Of a stretch of DNA of 64,000 bases, positions 9,752-63,459 are shown piece by piece. The first letter of the stretch is position 1. The number at the start of each line of letters is the position of its first letter. Where the stretch lies: contig OZ024747.1 in NCBI GenBank assembly GCA_964016885.1, positions 4,278,001 to 4,342,000 of the forward strand, read 5' to 3'. This DNA comes from Eledone cirrhosa. Lineage: Eukaryota. The position numbers were made by a program, and so were the translations under genes. Below the pieces are notes generated by a model. It had not been told where the DNA came from, did not search any database, and saw only the letters and a program-made list of their open reading frames with translations.

Positions 9752-10086
9752 ATCATCATCATCATTTTACGTCCGCTTTTCCCTGCTTGCAAAAGTGGGA
9801 CGGGAACTGATTCTGACTTGATTTCTACAGCTGGATGCCCTTCCTAACACCAACCTCATTTAGAGTGAGTGCTGGGTGCTTTTTTGCCGTGGCACCTACA
9901 CGACCACTTTGCAGTGGAATGATAGGGACCCCAGTCCTATCATCTCATTTCTACAGCTGAGTAAATTGGAGCAATGTGAAATAAAGTGTCTTGCTCAAGG
10001 AAACAAAACATCACCCGGTCTGAGAATTGAACTCACAACCTTTCGATTGCAAGGCCAATGCTCTAACCACTAAGCCATGTGCCTCC
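9752..10086 (-). mobile_element. full-length tRNA-CORE SINE with RTE-derived tail
   Basis: Near-identical to 18234-18578 and 32427-32770. Box A tggcttagtgg, box B gagttcaattc, CORE-like ccttgagcaagacacttt, (ATG)n tail. Confidence 0.92.
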
Positions 10087-10102
10087 ACATATATATATAT
10101 AT

Positions 10103-10738
10103 AAGTATGTATAGGTACATACATATATGTATACAGACGTAGAGTAGTATGTATATATATACATACATGCACATATATATATATATGTACATATGGATTT
10201 ACCGAACATTTATTATAATGCTCAGTTTGTTTGTAAACAAACATCCCGAATTAAGCCGTACAATGTTTAGCAACCATATTTGCCCTTTTGTTCAACACTG
10301 GCAAAGGAACGATGTACTAGTTTCAAGCTTATTAGCTATCGTCAGCACTATACCTTCCTGCCAGATGATTGAACATCTGAAAGTATATACTTTCCTTATG
10401 CATATTAACGGCTGAGCAGCCTAATTTGCATATCGAGTGAGTTAATCGGCCGGGCGTATCGAAAACGATAAATGGAAAAAATGAAACGAATTTCATTTCT
10501 CACTCTTAGTACGGCTGTTACTTAAATATAAATATGTATACGTACATACATATATGTATACAGACGTACTGTAGTATGTATATATATACATACATGCACA
10601 CATATATATATATATGTATATATATACATACTACTGTACGTCTGTATACATATATGTATGTATGTATACATACTTATATTTAAGTAACAGCTGTACTAAG
10701 TGTGCGAAATGAAATTGCGTTTCATTTTTTCCATTTAT
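10103..10738 (-). mobile_element. non-coding hammerhead-bearing element (retrozyme or non-autonomous Penelope-like), ~427-bp unit, tandem plus inverted
   Basis: Direct repeat with period 427 (cagacgt at 10134 and 10561), inverted arms 10468-~10590 and ~10615-10738, hammerhead at 10312-10348, TA flanks. Confidence 0.8.
10312..10348 (-). ncRNA. minimal type I hammerhead ribozyme motif
   Basis: GUG CUGACGA U AGCU AAUA AGCU U GAAAC UA GUA CAU: intact core, 4-bp stem II, palindromic stem III (ACUAGU), 3-bp stem I. Confidence 0.75.
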
Positions 10739-10759
10739 ATATATATATATATATATATA

Positions 10760-10968
10760 ATTAGTACAGATTAAATTTTAAGCAAAGAATTTCTGCTTTC
10801 ACCTTATACGGTATCTTCAGAAGATAGGTGAAAACAGAAATTCTTTGCTTAAACTTTAATCTGTATTAATAATAAATATTTGTTCTACGGGTTTATATAT
10901 ACACTTATAAATATACATCCTTATCTAGTCCTCTTCGGATTTTTGTCTTTGAATTTATTATCACTGTA
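10760..10968. mobile_element. fold-back Penelope-like pLTR remnant
   Basis: Inverted arms ~10760-10804 and 10826-10870. The minus strand has CUGAAGA-UACC..GGU-GAAA near the centre, and a unique tail runs to (TA)n. Confidence 0.65.
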
Positions 10969-10977
10969 TATATATAT

Positions 10978-12767
10978 ATCATCATCATCATCGTTTAACG
11001 TCCATCTTCCACGCTAGCATGGGTTAGTTGGGAGTTGTCCCACTTGAGGCAAGGTTGATCGGGTGACCGTGTCTTGCTCATATAGGACTATCTAGCAGGT
11101 TTTCTACGGCTGGATGCCCTTCCTAACACCAACCACATTTACAGTGTGGAACTGGGAACTTTTTACCGTGTTACCTACACGGCCTCATTACAGCGTGGAC
11201 TGTGTTTTTTTTTTTTGTCGTGACACCTACACGATCTCGATCTCATTATCTCGTGGTGTTGGTGGGAGTGGGAGGATAGGGTAGTGGATTGGGGTGTATA
11301 TTTGGTTAAGAGGTGCCTATTGACTATAGGTTTCGCTTTGTACATAGGCAAGGTGGGTCTTCTGTATTACTGCATAGTGCCAAAGATCTCGGTCCAGTGA
11401 CATTGTCTTGGAGAGGTGTAAGTGTGTAAGGTCGGAATTTATCAGATCGTCCCGGGTTTTTCTGGGTCTACCTACTCCGTAACTACCATCAATTTTGATC
11501 ACCCTGCACTTTTTTATGCAGCTGTCGTCTTTCATGCGCATCATGTGACCATACCAACGTAGTCTTCTCTCAAGTAAACAACATGTGATCCCTCTTATTC
11601 CTAATTTCTCACTTATTTCATTTATGCTTTGCCGTTCACGTATATTACTATTACACATCCAACGGAACATGCATGCTTCGTTCCTTTCCAGTCTGCGCAG
11701 GTCCTCTGCACGTAATGCCCATGTCTCACTGCCATGTAGCATTGCTGTTCGTATACAGGCATCATACAATCTGCCTTTCATTTTTAGAGAGAAACCTTTT
11801 GTGGCCAACAGCGGTATAAGCTCTCTGAACTTTTTCCATCCCGTTCTGACTCTGGCTACTGTACTTTCAGAACACCCTCCACCACTGCTGATTTCGTCAC
11901 CCAGGTAACGGAAAGTGTCTACTATTTCTATAGAACCATCTGGGCAATAGAAGGAGTTAGTATCCTTTGGGCACTTGCTACTTATTGCACCTGAGCATTG
12001 GCCACATATAAAGTCTACGTTCTTAGATAGTTTACCTGTGATCCCACTACATCTTTTATGTACCCATACTTTGCATTTGGGACATAAAATAGAATCTCTG
12101 CCTACTCCTTTCCTACACACTGAGCATGGCCCTGAGGGCACCTGTGCCTTATTTTCCTTTCTACAAACTATAACTTTAGTCTTAGACAAGTTAACTTTAA
12201 GGCCTTTTGATTCTAGGCCATGCTTCCATGTTTCAAATTCTTCTCTAGTTCAGCCATTGATTCAGCTATGAGCGTTAGATCATCTGCGTATAGGAGTTCC
12301 CATGGACAGCCAGTCTTGAACTCCTCTGTTATAGCCTGAAGGGCAATAATAAATAGGAGGGGGCTAAGGACAGAGCCTTGATGAACGCAAACTTTTACAC
12401 TAAATTCTTCACAATATTTATTGTTAATTCTAACCTTACCGACTGTTTCATTATACATAGCTTCTATAGCTCTCACAAGCCATTCATCTACACCTAGTTT
12501 TCTAAGAGCCCACCAGATAATGGAGCGGGGGACTCTGTCAAAGGCTTTCTCCAGGTCTACAAAAGCTAAGTAGAGGGGTTTACTTTTAGTTAGGTACTTC
12601 TCTTGTAGTTGCCGTACAAGGAAAAGAGCGTCTGTGGTACTTTTACCTGACACAAACCCAAACTGCATTTCATCTAGATCAATTCGCTCTCTGGTTAGTT
12701 GCGCTATAACTCTTTCTGTGACCTTCATGACCTGGTCAACTAACGTAACGCCTCTATAGTTTCCCCT
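10978..12767 (-). mobile_element. RTE LINE, 5'-truncated (subfamily C), frameshifted RT
   Basis: ORFs 12213..12728 (FVDLEKAFD, QGSVLSP, YADD) and 11317..12189, then a 3' UTR and (GAT)n tail. Confidence 0.97.
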
Positions 12768-21677: not shown

Positions 21678-21885
21678 CATATATATATACATATATATAT
21701 ATATATGAAATACGTCCTTTTACGCACAAGGCGCCAAGGTACGCATGTATTGTCCAACCAAGTGCCAGTGTGGTTCAATGGCGGGTTAATAAATTAACGA
21801 GCCAGAACAAATATAAACAAGGTTTAGTAAATAATGAAAAAGTTTCAAAATAAATTTTAAAAAATTGACTTTACCTACTATAGTT

Positions 21886-21969
21886 ACCTTTACCGATCGG
21901 TTTCGAATCCCAAAAATAAAATGTAGGTCATACGGCCTTCGTTGCAAAGAGAGATTCTCGTCAGAAGGT
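21886..21969 (-). ncRNA. type I hammerhead ribozyme, copy 1
   Basis: ACCUU CUGACGA GAAUCU..GGAUUC GAAA CCGAUCGG UA AAGGU: complete core, stems I-III pair, GUA cleavage triplet. Confidence 0.88.
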
Positions 21970-22368
21970 TCTTTTCATTCAAAGAATATAAAATTCCTGA
22001 ATTTAAATCACAAACTAGCGCTATCAAAGACTGTTCCTGGGATGAGAGTGGATGATGTAGAACAGGTTTATCAAGGGCCGTAGTAAAGATAGAGGCAAAA
22101 GGAGGTAGGTCAAACTAGCCACCGCTGTTATCAGCAGCAGTCGGAATGACCCGGTTTGTTCTCAACGTTTGTGGAGGTAGTAGTAATATGAAATACGTCC
22201 TTTCACGCACAAGGCGCCAAGGTACGCATGTATTGTCCAACCAAGTGCCAGTGTGGTTCAATGGCGGGTTAATAAATTAACGAGCCAGAACAAATATAAA
22301 CAAGGTTTAGTAAATAATGAAAAAGTTTCAAAATAAATTTTAAAAAATTGACTTTACCTACTATAGTT

Positions 22369-22452
22369 ACCTTTACCGATCGGTTTCGAATCCCAAAAAT
22401 AAAACGTAGGTCATACGGCCTTCGTTGCAAAGAGAGATTCTCGTCAGAAGGT
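22369..22452 (-). ncRNA. type I hammerhead ribozyme, copy 2
   Basis: Same as 21886-21969 with one change in loop II. Confidence 0.88.
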
Positions 22453-22600
22453 TCTTTTCATTCAAGCAACGAAGGCCGTATGACCTACGTTTTATTTTTG
22501 GGATTCGAAACCGATCGGTAAAGGTAACTATAGTAGGTAAAGTCAATTTTTTAAAATTTATTTTGAAACTTTTTCATTATTTACTAAACCTTGTTTATAT

Positions 22601-33502: not shown

Positions 33503-35740
33503 TTAGATGGGTGGACTGCGGAAATTTGAAAAGTCTAAGCACTCAATGTCAATGTCACAGATAAAGATAAATTCACCTCCCGCTGCAAGACGAGAATACA
33601 AGGACCCCTCTATATTTCAGACACGGATGACCAACAAAATTCCGTCTCCTACACCCCCTCACCCCTTCCCCTCCAACCCATCCATCCCACCCTCCCAACT
33701 TCAGAGTTGGTACCATGAACGTAGGCACATTGAAAGGTCGCACAAATGAGGTTGTAGAGATGCTTGAACGTAAAGAAGTTGATGTTTGTTGTATTCAAGA
33801 GACTAGGTGGAGAGGGGGATCTGCCAGATTCATCGTGGGTAAAAAACGATGCTATAAACTTTTCTGGGTGGGAAATGGCAACAGACAGGGTGGTGTAGGA
33901 ATTATGTTAGCTGAAAAATGGGTAGATAAGATAATTGACGTAGAGTGAATGACAGAATAATTGAATTAAGACTAGTTCTAAATAGAACTACTGTGACAAT
34001 AATATCTGCTTATGCACCCCAATCTGGTCTACCTGACGTTATAAAGGACAGGTTCTATGAGACGCTAATACACACTACCTCCCAAATAACCGACAGTGAC
34101 TACTTAATTATTGCTGGTGATCTAAACGGTCACGTTGGACAACATAGTGATGGCTATGATGGAATCCATGGAGGCTATGGGGTTGGAAATAGAAATGAGG
34201 AGGGCTTCAGAATCCTGGAATTATGTGATGCAAATAGCCTAACTATCTGTAACACAAACTTCAAAAAACGTGAAAACCACTTGATCACCTATAGATCAGG
34301 GGAACATGCCAGCCAAATAGATTATATCCTTACTAGAAGACGGGACAAAATGTCTGGTGTAAACTCTAAATCCCTCCCCCGTGAAGAATGCCCCTCCCAA
34401 CATAGCCTAGTAGTTAGTGACCTCATAGTCAGGAATAGACGTACTCGACAACAGAGGAGGCCTACCTTGAGGAGAAGAATATGGAAATTGAAGGACCCCA
34501 TAGCCAGTGACATATTTAAAAGCTTATTACTTGATGCCTTTGACATTAAGGAAGAGCAATTAGAGACGTGCAATATAGAGGAACAGTGGCAATTCTTGAA
34601 AGTGAACCTGCTGAAAGCAACGGATGAAATCTATGGCTGGGGCAGACCTATTGGCAGGAGGAGAGTAACTTGGTGGTAGAACAGTAAGGTGGAAGAGACA
34701 ATCAAGGCCAAAAAGCAGGCTTGGAAAGTATGGCAGGATGGGGGAAGTAGAGAGCACTATCAAGTGGCCAGGAGAGAAGCTAGGAGACAAGTGTACCTTT
34801 CAAAAAGAGTAGCAGAGGATAGAAAGTTCAAGCATGTTCTACAACGTGAGGACCAAAAACATGAGGTGTTCAGGATTGCTAGACAATGTGTCAAGGAAAA
34901 CCGTGATATTGTCGGGGAGAAGTGTGTCCATAATGATAATGGTGTACTTGCGCTCACTGATAGTGATAAGAAGATAGCCTGGAAGTGTAACTACGAGAGA
35001 CTATTAAATAAGAAGATAGCCTGGAAGTGTAACTACGAGAGACTACTAAGTGTAACTACGAGAGAATAAAGGGGAAAAAGATAGTCTGCCCCAAATCGAT
35101 CCAATAGAAGCATAAATGAACTAAGTGAGAAATTAGGAATAAGAGGGATCAGATGTTTACTCGAGAGAAGACTATGTTGGTATGGTCACGTGATGCGCAT
35201 GAAAGACGACAGCTGCATAAAAAAGTGCAGGGCGATCAAAATTGATGGTAGTTACGGAGTAGGTAGACCCAGAAAAATCTGGGATGATCTGATAAATTCC
35301 GGCCTCACACACTTACATCTCTCTAAGACAATGTCTCTGGACAGAGATCTTTGGCGCTACGCAGTAATACAGAAGATCCGCCTTGCCTATGTACAAAGCG
35401 AAACCTGCAGTCAGTAGGAACCTCTTAACCAAATATACACCCCAATCCACTACCCCTACCCTATCCTCCCTCCAACAGCACGAGAAAATGAGATCGAGAT
35501 TGTGTAGGTGTCACGACAAAAAACACATACAGTCCATGCTGTAATGTGGCCATGTAGGTAACACGGTAAAAAGTTCCCAGTTCCACACTGTAAATGTGGT
35601 TGGTGTTAGGAAGGGCATCCAGCCATAGAAAACCTGCCAGATAGTCCTATATGAGCGAGACACGGTCACCCGACCAGCGTTGCCTCAAGTGGAACAACTC
35701 CCGCTAGCGTGGAAAATGGACGTTAAACGAAGATGATGAT
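33503..35740 (+). mobile_element. RTE LINE (subfamily C) retaining the 5' APE domain, RT internally deleted
   Basis: GTMNVGTL..CCIQETRW..SAYAPQ..GDLNGHV..IDYIL. It jumps at ~35108 from the pre-RT linker to the C-terminus, and its 3' end matches 10978-11600. Confidence 0.93.
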
Positions 35741-36657
35741 CATCATCATCATCATCATCATCAGGTTTAGCGTCCGTGTTCCACGCTTGCATGGGTTTGG
35801 ACGGGGGTTTTCCCACTTGAGGCAAGAGTGGTTGTCTTGCTCGCATAGGACTGTCTGGCGGGTTTTCTACAGTTGGATGCCCTTCCTAACACCAACCACA
35901 TTTACAGTGTGGGGCTGGGAGGTTTTTACCGTGTTGCCTACACGGCCACATTACAGCGTGGACTGTCTGGCGGGTTTTCTACAGCTGGATGCCCTTCCTA
36001 ACACCAACCACATTTACAGTGTGGGGCTGGGAGGTTTTTACCGTGTTACCTACACGGCCACATTTACAGCGTGGACTGTGTGTTTTTTTTGTCGTGACAC
36101 CTACACGATCTCATTTGTTTCGGCCTGGATGTTGTGGGACCAACATAACTGTACATTGAAAGGGGCGGTGTGGATGGGGTGGAGGTGGTGGGACGGGGGG
36201 GTGTTTTGATAGAGATGCCTACTGACTGTAGTAGGTTTTTACTTTGTATTTAGGTAAGGCGGGTCTTCTCTATTACTGAGTACCGCCAAAGGTCTCGGTC
36301 CAGTGACATTGTCTTGGAGAGGTGTAAGCGTGTGAGGTCGGAATTTATCAGCTCGTCCCATGTTTTTCTGGGTCTGCCTACTCCGTGGCTACCGTCTATC
36401 TTTATTGCCCTGCACTTTGTTATACAGCTGTCGTCTTTCATGCGCATCACGTGACCGTACCAACGTAGCCTTCTCTCGAGTAAACAACATCTGATCCCTC
36501 TTATTTCTAATTTTTTCCTTAGTTCGTTTATGCTTTGCCGTTCACGTATATTACTATTGCACATCCAGCGGAGCATGCAAGCTTCGTTCCTCTCTAGTCT
36601 GCGTATATCCTCTGCACACAATGCCCAGGTCTCACTGCCATGCAGCATTGCTGTTCG
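35741..36657 (-). mobile_element. RTE LINE 3' fragment (subfamily C'), tail-to-tail with the previous copy
   Basis: ORF 36250..36648 is near-identical to the end of 18874..19797; ~110-bp duplication in the 3' UTR. Confidence 0.95.
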
Positions 36658-55580: not shown

Positions 55581-55857
55581 ATAAATGGAAAAAATGAAAT
55601 TTCATTTCTCACTCTTAGTACGGCTGATACTTAAATATAAGTATGTATATGTACATACATATACGTATACAGACGTACAGTAGTATGTATATACATACAT
55701 TCATGCACACATATATATATGTACTTATGGGTTTACCAAACATTTATTGTAATGTTCGGTTTGTTTGTAAACAAACAGCCCGAATTAAGCCATACAGTGT
55801 TCCGCAACCACCGTCGCCCTTTTGTTTAACACTGACACAGGAACGATGAACTAGTTT
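55581..55857 (-). mobile_element. second copy of the ~427-bp hammerhead element, beginning inside the ribozyme
   Basis: Matches 10468-10530 joined to 10103-10323; homology stops at hammerhead stem III. Confidence 0.85.
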
Positions 55858-56162
55858 TTAAAATGATTAATCTTCCTTGATTCATCATTTTAAAAGGTGT
55901 TTATATTTGAAATTCTAGTTAAACTTTAATTAGTTTCCTACCTAGCTGTGTGTGCTTAAACACTTTACAAATTATCCCCTGTAAGTGTTTCATGTGTTTA
56001 TTTTAGATATATATATATGTCAATCAATTTCTAGTTGATATAAAATGCTCAGATCTATTCATTGGAATCTTTGAGCTTATTCTACGGTGGATGTAGCACG
56101 TCTCTCGGACATGACACCCTCAATTTAATTTTGGATATATATATTTATATATATATTTATAT

Positions 56163-56578
56163 ATATCACAGAAAAAAGAGAATCAGTGTTGCAATGAAAG
56201 GAATTTATTGGACATATTACAATTGTTTCTCGGGCGACCAGCTCAAGGCACGATCGATGTGGTGATCAAACCTGACTCTGAGATCGCACGATCCTAGGAT
56301 ACGTCTTGATTCTACGAAGCAGATTTTCCTACGAAGCAAATTTTCGTAGAATCGAGACGTATCCGAGAACCGTGTGATTTCAGAGTCAGATTTGATCACC
56401 ACATCGATCGTGCCTTGCGCTGGTCACCCGAGAAACGATTGTAATATGTCCAATAATTTCCTTTCATTGCAACACTGATTCTCTTTTTTCTGTGATATCA
56501 TACTCTGCTCTATGAGGGCATCGAGTGCTCATATGGCCTATCGCATACGGACGCTTTAAGCATCCAACACCAATTATA
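56163..56578 (+). mobile_element. fold-back pLTR-like element
   Basis: ~150-bp imperfect inverted arms (56163-56318 and 56343-56498) containing GAAAC(A/G)ATTGTA, then a tail atactctgct..gagtgctc. Confidence 0.7.
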
Positions 56579-56994: not shown

Positions 56995-57061
<67 letters not shown>

Positions 57062-57063
57062 AT

Positions 57064-57584
<521 letters not shown>

Positions 57585-58681: not shown

Positions 58682-58872
58682 TTTAATATAGATGAGATTC
58701 TACAGGACTAGAACTGTTTCATTCTTTAGAAATCATCAGGAATCCTGATGATTTCTAAAGAATGAAACAGTTCTAGTCCTGTAGAATCTCATCTATATTA
58801 AAACTTTTATACTCTGCTATGTATTGAGTACCTTACTTACTGTGGTTACCTCCGATTCAACCCGGAATAACG
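58682..58872 (+). mobile_element. perfect 60-bp-arm palindrome with hammerhead core plus pLTR tail
   Basis: 58682-58741 and 58743-58802 form an exact inverted repeat. CUGAUGA-UUUCUAAAGAAU-GAAAC lies next to the axis; tail atactctgct..tgagtac. Confidence 0.75.
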
Positions 58873-59257: not shown

Positions 59258-59299
59258 ATTTATATTTGGATATAATGCTCTGAAATAGTGATATATATG

Positions 59300-59526
59300 T
59301 GAAGACAAACATAGAATATTCGAAAATATTCTGTATGTTTATAATAAACATTTCGAAGACCCAATCGCTATAGAATAGAATACGTCACGTATTAGGTTAC
59401 TTCCCTTGCTTTTATCGAGAATCTCAAATTGTAATACGTGACGTATTCTATTCTATAGCGATTGGGTCTTCGAAATGTTTATTATAAACATACAGAATAT
59501 TTTCGAATATTCTATGTTTGTCTTCA
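59300..59526. repeat. fold-back element, 95-bp arms with 37-bp spacer
   Basis: 59300-59394 is the reverse complement of 59432-59526; TA-rich flanks. Confidence 0.9.
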
Positions 59527-59678
59527 TATATATTTATATATATATATATATATTTATATATATTTATATATTTGTATATATATATACAATTAAGTTAAAG
59601 TGTACATCTACATATGTATACGGAAGTATTAGTATGCATATAAATATGTATACATATAAATACACATATGTATACATA

Positions 59679-62411: not shown

Positions 62412-63040
62412 GTCAGGTCACCAGTTGGTGCTACTGGTAACATGTATCCCAGTACAACCTGTCCCATGGTCGGGTCGTTGGCGACTAAACTGGCAACCCC
62501 ACCAAGGTTTCTTGGTGAGGAGGGTGACTTTGGACATCCTGCAGGACTAAAAACAAAACCTGGCAAAGGAGCTCTTAAGAGTCAATGGCCATCCAAAATC
62601 ACCGGGAGAGATGACCCCTTAGCCTTTGTCAAGGCAGAATTCTAAGAGAAGGAAAACTCTGATATAACACCTGCAACCCTGATGGTATCCAATGATGTTG
62701 ACTTATTCTTCTTTTTGGTAAATATCATCTTGGTTAAGAGAGTGGGACTGGCTTTGTGCAGTGCCTTTGCTCACTATAAAAGCTTCACGGCACAGGCATT
62801 GCTTTATATCTGGAGATCTCTCTACACTTGTCGTCACATGGTACCAAAGGCCCAACACTATGTGTCAATAATTGTCACAGGTGTAGTGTTTGTACCAGAG
62901 TTTTCAAGTCGCTGGCTGGACTAAAAGTCACACTTGTTTAGCGCATCGGTAGGGGTTCTCCTACATGGATATAAAGTAGTGGCCGTACTCGAAAACGAGT
63001 TGGCAGCCACCATGTATGTATGTATGTATGTATGTATGTA
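62412..63040 (+). mobile_element. ~600-bp non-autonomous RTE-derived retroposon with (TATG)n tail
   Basis: Near-identical to the reverse complement of 20641-21238. Confidence 0.88.
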
Positions 63041-63041
63041 T

Positions 63042-63428
63042 GAATTCTAGGAGAAGGAAAACTCAGATATAACACCTGCAACCCTGATGGTATCCAATGA
63101 TGTTGACTTATTCTTCTTTTTGGTAAATATCATCTTGGTTAAGAGAGTGGGACTGGCTTTGTGCAGTGCCTTTGCTCACTATAAAAGCTTCACGGCACAG
63201 GCATTGCTTTATATCTGGAGATCTCTCTGCACTTGTCGTCACAGGGTACCATGGGCCCAGCACTATGTGTCAATAATTGTCACAAGTGTAGTGTTTGTAC
63301 CAGAGTTTTCAAGTCGCTGGCTGGACTAAAAAGTCACACTCGTTCAGCGCATCAGTAGGGGTTCTCCTACATGGATATAAAGTAGTGGCCGTACTCGAAA
63401 ACGAGTTGGCAGCCACCATGTATGTATG
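63042..63428 (+). mobile_element. 5'-truncated tandem copy of the same retroposon
   Basis: Repeats 62637-63020. Confidence 0.88.
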
Positions 63429-63459
63429 TGTATATATATATGTGTGTATGTATGCATGT

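What the first reader, a model, noticed from the sequence alone, without database searches (positions are those of the whole stretch)
10103..10738. Second hammerhead family: ~427-bp unit with a minimal ribozyme, tandem plus fold-back
Seen: no evident sequence similarity to the 483-bp family, but the same architecture. It has a direct repeat of period 427, an inverted terminal copy, TA flanks and a 37-nt minimal hammerhead (10312-10348, minus) with palindromic ACUAGU stem III. The unit embeds its own TA/TACA microsatellite segment. Inference: an independent retrozyme-like family whose internal TA repeats might help priming or integration at (TA)n targets.
Basis: partly seen in the sequence, partly recalled or inferred. 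Interest (0 to 1): 0.75.

Follow-up and report, generated by a model that had tools for sequence, protein, structure and literature searches.

The report
Two-armed hammerhead retrozyme in TA repeats
This is one worn copy of an abundant, non-coding jumping repeat with a hammerhead (self-cutting RNA) motif that sits in TA microsatellites as two back-to-back arms ending at two different fixed points, a footprint shared with the genome's protein-coding Penelope-type elements, whose enzyme likely copies it from both cut DNA strands at once.

Summary
The observation mostly holds. There is a 427-bp period, an inverted arm, TA flanks and a hammerhead at 10312-10348 (minus), with no similarity to the 483-bp family. 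Three corrections: the ribozyme is the canonical metazoan type I form, not the minimal one; this copy has one ribozyme with a shortened helix I; and the inverted arm is usually not a simple fold-back. The family is large (25,179 exact hammerhead-pattern matches, at least four subfamilies), non-coding, and keeps its predicted RNA fold between subfamilies. It is a new member of the known animal non-LTR retrozymes. Its 3' ends fall at two fixed sites 62 nt apart, the Penelope-like-element (PLE) 'tail'. In 68 of 73 two-armed insertions one arm ends at each site (independent choice gives at most half), as in 6 of 6 of an intact Neptune-like PLE. In the youngest subfamily both arms share one haplotype. 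The likely mechanism is coupled priming from both nicked target strands on one circular or multimeric RNA by a PLE enzyme. Cleavage, circles, expression and the partner enzyme are untested. This scan noted the same footprint before on other DNA. My literature searches did not find the quantified rule.

The parts
10089..10101 (.). Left (TA)n target flank; boundary with the element ambiguous by a few bases; no target-site duplication discernible
10102..10604 (-). Left arm: one full 427-bp unit (10102-10528) plus a 5'-truncated start of the next; ends at the tail-less 3' site (N site, 10102)
10103..10194 (-). Embedded TA/TACA microsatellite segment, predicted long AU/AC-rich hairpin; length-variable between copies
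10290..10375 (-). Type I hammerhead domain with extended helix I (fold z = -5.25); core 10312-10348; predicted cleavage between 10315 and 10314; this copy has a 2-nt deletion leaving a 3-bp proximal helix I
10424..10431 (-). ATGCAAAT octamer in a 38-nt block with 1 variable position across four subfamilies; possible promoter element, untested
10469..10528 (-). Internal copy of the ~62-nt 'tail' between the two fixed 3' end sites
10605..10609 (.). Junction of the two 5'-truncated arms, inside the palindromic TA segment (approximate)
10610..10737 (+). Right (inverted) arm, no hammerhead; carries the tail (10677-10737) and ends at the tailed 3' site (T site)
10738..10760 (.). Right (TA)n target flank
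55581..55857 (-). Second, single-armed family member in the window (86-92% identical), tailed end in TA, truncated inside the hammerhead

Best explanation
This is a decayed copy of a non-coding, high-copy hammerhead repeat (an animal non-LTR retrozyme) that is likely mobilised in trans by a Penelope-like element (PLE) enzyme, which likely nicks both strands of a (TA)n target and primes two cDNAs on one RNA template, one at each of two fixed internal start sites 62 nt apart. SHOWN from DNA: copy number, subfamilies, lack of coding capacity, TA targeting, two sharp 3' ends, scattered 5' ends, one tailed plus one tail-less end per two-armed insertion, shared haplotype of both arms, and the same end rule in an intact Neptune-like PLE. 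INFERRED from published work: tandem loci are transcribed, the hammerheads cut multimers to unit length (the weak palindromic helix III is predicted to need a dimer), host ligase makes ~430-500-nt circles, and the end sites are reverse-transcription start sites as shown in vitro for a lizard PLE. INFERRED here: the two cDNAs run independently, read through the ribozyme site (circular or uncut multimeric template), stop at random, and are joined 5' end to 5' end with short microhomology or filler. This window copy, with one damaged ribozyme, would not release a unit-length RNA by itself.
For: 25,179 / 10,333 / 3,224 exact pattern matches, controls 0. Four subfamilies 9-17% apart. Across their consensuses the core-to-cleavage stretch varies at 2 of 31 positions (N7 and loop 2) against 34 of 96 downstream. 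97.9% of cells pair in a 74-pair structure, with double changes at 4 pairs. 241 of 292 3' termini lie at two sites. 129 of 160 typed ends are followed by (TA)3. Mixed ends in 68 of 73 two-armed insertions (strict typing 33 of 37 and 20 of 20), while single arms split 48:43. Intact 832-aa Neptune-like PLE: 6 of 6 pairs mixed. Junction offsets are spread over the whole unit, 28 positive and 31 negative of 61; the longer arm is tailed in 34 and tail-less in 34. In 17 of 67 pairs neither arm is contained in the other. Young subfamily: inverted arms differ by 1.0% (50 pairs, 16 loci) against 3.3% between loci. 1 of 294 5' ends lies at the cleavage site against 6.6 expected; 123 of 295 arms exceed one unit. 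Literature: PMC11167929 (two internal start sites define the tail; both strands cut and extended), PMC7229834, PMC8557442, 10.64898/2026.07.22.740005.
Against: No autonomous partner identified. Neptune-like B shares no sequence with the unit (score 21-22 against shuffled maximum 30-37), and the match in the family A locus is a retrozyme copy that A inserted into. Li et al. found pLTR homology for 24 of 57 frog families. 5 of 73 two-armed insertions have like ends. 15 of 52 pairs and 5 of 25 were uncertain under strict typing. The hammerhead helices themselves show no double compensatory change, and the count of 4 covarying pairs is not above shuffles (90 of 500). The structure was partly derived from these sequences, which are related. 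The monomer's lowest-energy fold is inactive. In older subfamilies arms at one locus differ as much as close copies elsewhere (5.2% vs 5.2%). Shared haplotypes could reflect two RNAs from one source locus or gene conversion. In vitro the lizard PLE showed no start-site difference between strands and did not need ribozyme cleavage (PMC11167929).
Confidence: 0.72

Rival explanations
1. Same element class, but the inverted arm arises by fold-back: one cDNA self-primes, copies itself, and the endonuclease resolves the hairpin at the other fixed site; later deletions at the palindrome centre make junctions asymmetric.
For: Explains shared haplotypes and mixed ends without dual priming; the window junction is symmetric; PMC8557442 attributes the tail to endonuclease resolution of an intermediate; centres of palindromes are deletion-prone (own knowledge).
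Against: Only 7 of 61 junctions are near-symmetric and offsets have no preferred sign, also in the youngest subfamily; 17 of 67 pairs have neither arm contained in the other; tail ends were mapped as reverse-transcription start sites in vitro (PMC11167929).
Confidence: 0.13
2. The unit is just the pseudo-LTR of an autonomous PLE, and these copies are its truncated ends.
For: Same tail, inversion and TA-target footprint as PLE ends; PLE coding fragments near 23 of 165 loci; only about 165 of thousands of loci were examined.
Against: Head-to-tail arrays of up to 6.4 units have no ORF between units; neighbouring PLE fragments belong to several families with their own different ribozymes and tails; the ribozyme is canonical rather than the PLE minimal type (PMC4209133).
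Confidence: 0.07
3. The template is a linear read-through transcript of tandem loci and the hammerhead is a passenger; no RNA circle is involved.
For: No RNA data; ribozyme cleavage was dispensable for PLE insertion in vitro (PMC11167929); 8 of 9 frog dimers did not cleave (10.64898/2026.07.22.740005); one young array alternates two unit variants (L214).
Against: Core and helices are held nearly invariant between subfamilies 17% apart; units within young arrays are near-identical and share locus-private alleles (0.9% divergence), as expected from repeated copying of one unit; circles are shown for coral, mussel and axolotl retrozymes (PMC7229834).
Confidence: 0.2
4. Chance motif in a microsatellite-derived satellite or MITE-like DNA element.
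For: Inverted termini and TA flanks resemble MITEs; Rfam gave no hammerhead hit.
Against: The inverted ends are two 3' ends of variable-length, 5'-truncated arms, not fixed terminal repeats; many insertions are single-armed; the full catalytic core and three helices are kept across subfamilies.
Confidence: 0.02

Closest known systems
Metazoan non-LTR retrozymes (Cervera and de la Pena 2020, PMC7229834; Li, Clavereau and Pollet 2026, 10.64898/2026.07.22.740005)
   Same: Short (150-450 bp, here 427-500) low-GC (35-38%) tandem units, one canonical type I hammerhead per unit, no ORF, no LTR/PBS/PPT, thousands of copies; U.U at the base of helix II as in axolotl HHR_Amex2; co-occurs with PLEs.
   Different: Strict (TA)n targeting, two fixed 3' ends with a 62-nt tail and two-armed insertions were not described in the parts read; no pLTR homology to a PLE found here; embedded microsatellite; cleavage and circles not shown for this family.
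Insertion units of endonuclease-bearing Penelope-like elements, Neptune/Naiad type (Craig et al. 2021, PMC8557442; Frangieh et al. 2024, PMC11167929)
   Same: [quoted passage not shown]
   Different: No RT or GIY-YIG ORF; tail 62 nt rather than 30-40; canonical rather than minimal ribozyme; here the one-tail rule is counted (68 of 73) and tied to a shared template.
Minimal hammerheads (min-HHR) of metazoan PLE pseudo-LTRs (Cervera and de la Pena 2014, PMC4209133)
   Same: Type I topology, palindromic helix III predicted to work as a dimer.
   Different: min-HHRs have a 7-8-bp helix II, a 4-5-bp helix I and G10.1-C11.1; this family has a 4-bp helix II, a 6-7-bp helix I and U.U at the base.

Membership tests
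Non-LTR retrozyme | Type I hammerhead in each repeat unit | tested here: met
   Core intact in 45 of 51 copies spanning it in BLAST-selected loci; 25,179 pattern matches
Non-LTR retrozyme | Short tandem units of a few hundred bp, low GC | tested here: met
   Subfamily consensuses 431-490 nt, GC 35-38%; arms up to 6.4 units
Non-LTR retrozyme | No protein-coding capacity; not part of a longer coding element | tested here: met
   Longest M-ORF 47-110 aa; none of 165 loci showed the unit continuous with its own ORF; not a genome-wide test
Non-LTR retrozyme | At least two consecutive intact hammerheads at the locus (Li et al. 'active' criterion) | tested here: not met
   The window copy has one; other loci meet it (26 hammerhead-to-hammerhead monomers)
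Non-LTR retrozyme | Self-cleavage of the transcript | not testable with these tools
   Needs an in vitro assay
Non-LTR retrozyme | Expressed as linear and circular unit-length RNA | not testable with these tools
   Needs RNA from the organism
PLE-type insertion footprint | Fixed 3' ends with optional tail, variable 5' truncation | tested here: met
   241 of 292 3' termini at two sites; 5' ends in all ten deciles
PLE-type insertion footprint | Adjacent inverted 5'-truncated copy | tested here: met
   73 two-armed insertions typed among 165 loci
PLE-type insertion footprint | Microsatellite target bias | tested here: met
   129 of 160 ends followed by (TA)3
Autonomous PLE / PLE pseudo-LTR | RT plus GIY-YIG ORF within the element | tested here: not met
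Autonomous PLE / PLE pseudo-LTR | Sequence homology to the pLTR of an autonomous PLE | tested here: inconclusive
   None with Neptune-like A or B; only two of many PLE families compared
PLE minimal hammerhead | Helix II 7-8 bp, helix I 4-5 bp, G10.1-C11.1 | tested here: not met
   4-bp helix II, 6-7-bp helix I, U.U base (definition)

The most novel reading that the evidence does not exclude
A dimeric PLE enzyme binds one retrozyme RNA circle that shares structure but no sequence with its own RNA, and obligately primes the two nicked target strands from two different fixed start sites. That single rule would explain the PLE tail, the inverted copy and the tandem arrays together, and would make this footprint direct genomic evidence that PLEs mobilise animal retrozyme circles in trans.
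Probability: 0.4. Interest if true: 0.72.

Novelty: new member of a known kind. Interest (0 to 1): 0.48.

Why it matters
The element class is known, so the family alone is a modest addition. Its value is as a test system. Which enzyme moves animal retrozymes has been proposed from co-occurrence and phylogeny but not shown, and how PLEs make tails and inverted copies is stated as unresolved in PMC8557442. Here tens of thousands of copies, a very young subfamily and intact PLE ORFs coexist in one genome. The counted one-tail-per-insertion rule gives a sharp prediction for the existing in vitro PLE assay.

Tried and rejected
Rfam scans: only sub-threshold microRNA and tRNA hits from TA-rich hairpins, no hammerhead row. 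Sequencing runs: no RNA holder listed; contigs of two runs from one sample and study confirmed family variants but say nothing on expression. DNA search with a sister-subfamily stretch returned nothing although the query is in the genome, replaced by a pattern count. First end-typing script mis-scored subfamily variants and was replaced. Rare-allele sharing in older subfamilies (12.6% inverted, 19.1% tandem vs 1% between loci) is inflated by the few young-subfamily loci in that set and is not relied on. The zero 'shared private alleles between loci' is true by definition and not used. Partner search: Neptune-like A and B share no sequence with the unit. Their clade label rests on motifs (YRDD, C-terminal GIY-YIG-like stretch, cysteine linker) and recall; Pfam gave only GIY-YIG at E = 0.024 for B, PDB nothing, and no Atlas result was obtained. 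The octamer occurs 4 times in the window against 5.3 expected, so it is only a lead. The newt promoter paper was not available and is cited second-hand. Internal-TA priming and simple fold-back were considered and lowered. Literature searches for the coupled-end rule and for cephalopod retrozymes found no description; supplements were not read.

Full report
1. Observation. The window lies in a 3.0-Gb animal assembly. Its repeats look cephalopod-like to me, which is recalled and untested. At 10102-10737 there is a left arm (one 427-bp unit plus a short start of a second) and an inverted right arm of about 130 bp, both ending in (TA)n. The hammerhead core is at 10312-10348 on the minus strand, with predicted cleavage between 10315 and 10314. 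The surrounding 91 nt fold far better than shuffles (z -5.25), though the 45-nt core alone does not (z -1.03). There is one hammerhead in the insertion. Rfam did not list it. No similarity to the 483-bp family was found.

2. The family. A DNA search gave 2,968 candidates, of which 40 were scored, with full-length matches at 95-97%. Exact-pattern counts were 3,224 for the window's motif, 10,333 for a sister motif and 25,179 for a pattern covering both, with reversed controls at 0. Twenty-six hammerhead-to-hammerhead monomers fell into four clusters of two or more, 9-17% apart, plus one singleton. The window copy belongs to the ~430-nt cluster, whose 48 full units average 96.7% to consensus. No ORF over 110 aa occurs in subfamily trimers. 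PLE coding fragments lie near 23 of 165 loci, from several families. The two cases read in full were a Neptune-like element inserted into the unit's internal TA run (L031) and a copy lying between two Neptune-like fragments, one of them joined directly at the truncated arm (L032).

3. The ribozyme. By the definitions in PMC4209133 (parts 1-2 of 4 read), canonical metazoan type I motifs have helix I of 6 bp, helix II of 4 bp and a 1-2-bp helix III with a palindromic loop, whereas PLE minimal motifs have a 7-8-bp helix II. The consensuses here have a 6-7-bp helix I, a 4-bp helix II over U.U and a 2-bp helix III, so they are canonical. The U.U pair matches axolotl HHR_Amex2 (PMC7229834 passage). 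The window copy keeps only 3 bp of helix I because of a 2-nt deletion. In BLAST-selected loci 45 of 51 copies have all 11 core positions intact (1.1% change vs 3.4% elsewhere). Between subfamilies the core stretch varies only at N7 and loop 2. A 74-pair structure is 97.9% paired over 21 monomers, with double changes at 4 pairs, two of them in a long-range helix that joins the region after the cleavage site to the tail. That pair count is not above shuffles (90 of 500), the sequences are related, and the monomers were picked by their hammerheads. The monomer's lowest-energy fold is inactive, consistent with the dimer requirement described in PMC4209133.

4. Insertion anatomy. Of 292 arm 3' termini in 165 loci, 118 map to a tail-less site 214 nt past the cleavage site and 123 to a tailed site about 62 nt further; 24 map to the internal TA run and 27 elsewhere, many of both being alignment breaks. 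129 of 160 typed ends run into (TA)3. 5' ends fall in every decile of the unit, with 1 of 294 at the cleavage site against 6.6 expected, and 123 of 295 arms exceed one unit (loci were chosen for holding a hammerhead). So copying reads through the ribozyme site. This is the PLE footprint described in PMC8557442 (passages). PMC11167929 (parts 1-2 of 4) showed that the tail lies between two internal reverse-transcription start sites and that both target strands are cut and extended.

5. The end rule. Single arms are tailed or tail-less about equally (48:43), so independent choice would give mixed ends in at most half of two-armed insertions. Observed: 47 of 52 lenient and 33 of 37 strict among 126 loci, 25 of 25 lenient and 20 of 20 strict among 47 young-subfamily loci (four pairs overlap the first set), and 68 of 73 combined. 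Six opposite-strand pairs of an intact 832-aa Neptune-like PLE, picked, were all mixed. The 483-bp insertion and the element at 58686-58870 in this window also have one tailed end.

6. Fold-back or dual priming. Among 61 clean junctions (7 of 68 dropped for long gaps or noisy labels) the offsets between the arms' truncation points span -234 to +218, 28 positive and 31 negative, and 7 lie within 20 nt. The longer arm is tailed in 34 and tail-less in 34. In 17 of 67 pairs (one with a 610-nt gap dropped) neither arm is contained in the other, which simple self-copying cannot give unless later deletion removed the centre. In the young subfamily both arms carry the same haplotype: 1.0% divergence over 50 pairs at 16 loci against 3.3% between loci, with locus-private alleles shared across arms at L179, L193, L199, L211 and L214. 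Two RNAs from one source locus, or gene conversion, remain possible. In older subfamilies this signal is largely lost.

7. Mechanism. Most likely a PLE enzyme cuts both strands of a TA repeat and primes two cDNAs on one circular or multimeric retrozyme RNA, one at each start site; the cDNAs stop at random and are joined 5' to 5'. Transcription, cleavage, circularisation and the identity of the enzyme are inferred. Intact candidates exist (family A, 832 aa, 143 matches scored; family B, 758 aa), but neither shares sequence with the unit, so recognition would be by structure or by another family.

8. Relation to known systems. The family meets the sequence-testable features of non-LTR retrozymes (PMC7229834: passages, Results part 1 of 3 and Discussion read; 10.64898/2026.07.22.740005: parts 1-3 of 5 read, no mollusc among its 35 species). 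Both papers propose PLEs as mobilisers. Searches found no account of a cephalopod retrozyme or of coupled use of the two start sites; supplements, which I did not read, could hold either. Earlier notes of this scan describe the same footprint in other families and genomes. I had the end asymmetry before that look-up, took the term 'two-armed' from those notes, and do not count them as evidence.

9. Verdict. A real feature and a new member of a known kind. The window copy itself is probably inert. Interest 0.48, carried by the testable insertion rule rather than by the family.

Noticed in passing
L239:3084-5579 and L067-L095; window 57040-57480 and 58686-58870: Two young Neptune-like PLE families with intact ORFs (832 aa and 758 aa), each with its own hammerhead and tail (about 165 and 75 nt); ends of family B and of a relative of family A lie in this window. 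Family B has a microsatellite-rich 3' region of its own.
   Followed up: partly
L031:4071-8393 and L239:1710-7575: Neptune-like family A has inserted into the retrozyme's internal TA run at two loci, so the embedded microsatellite acts as a landing site.
   Followed up: partly
L214:1905-5533: A young array alternates two unit variants (484 nt with one substitution; 494-502 nt without), suggesting a dimeric template or a later two-unit duplication.
   Followed up: partly
L121, L140 (alignment A1): Some units look like mosaics of two subfamilies, hinting at template switching or recombination.
   Followed up: no
window 10424-10431: An ATGCAAAT octamer in a near-invariant block upstream of the ribozyme; newt satellite 2 is reported to use an snRNA-type promoter (second-hand, PMC2220036 passage); that the octamer belongs to such promoters is recalled.
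   Followed up: partly
window 10761-10879: A different small two-armed element with a hammerhead-like motif shares the right TA flank; relatives flank other loci (L003, L006).
   Followed up: no
window 21703-22595: The 483-bp family also has a tail (about 105 nt) at one end only; my GAAA-based patterns found no hammerhead in it, and the best candidate reads GAAG in the core.
   Followed up: partly
window 10015-10088 and 11410-12500: A tRNA-derived SINE-like head abuts the left TA flank (Rfam tRNA 28.1 bits, below threshold), and a LINE reverse-transcriptase fragment lies on the minus strand to the right; neither is part of the element.
   Followed up: no
window 62637-63453, 35108-36535, 56140-56500, 59280-59530: A 405-bp direct repeat (96%), a 580-bp inverted pair (80%) and two further TA-flanked inverted modules, unexamined.
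   Followed up: no
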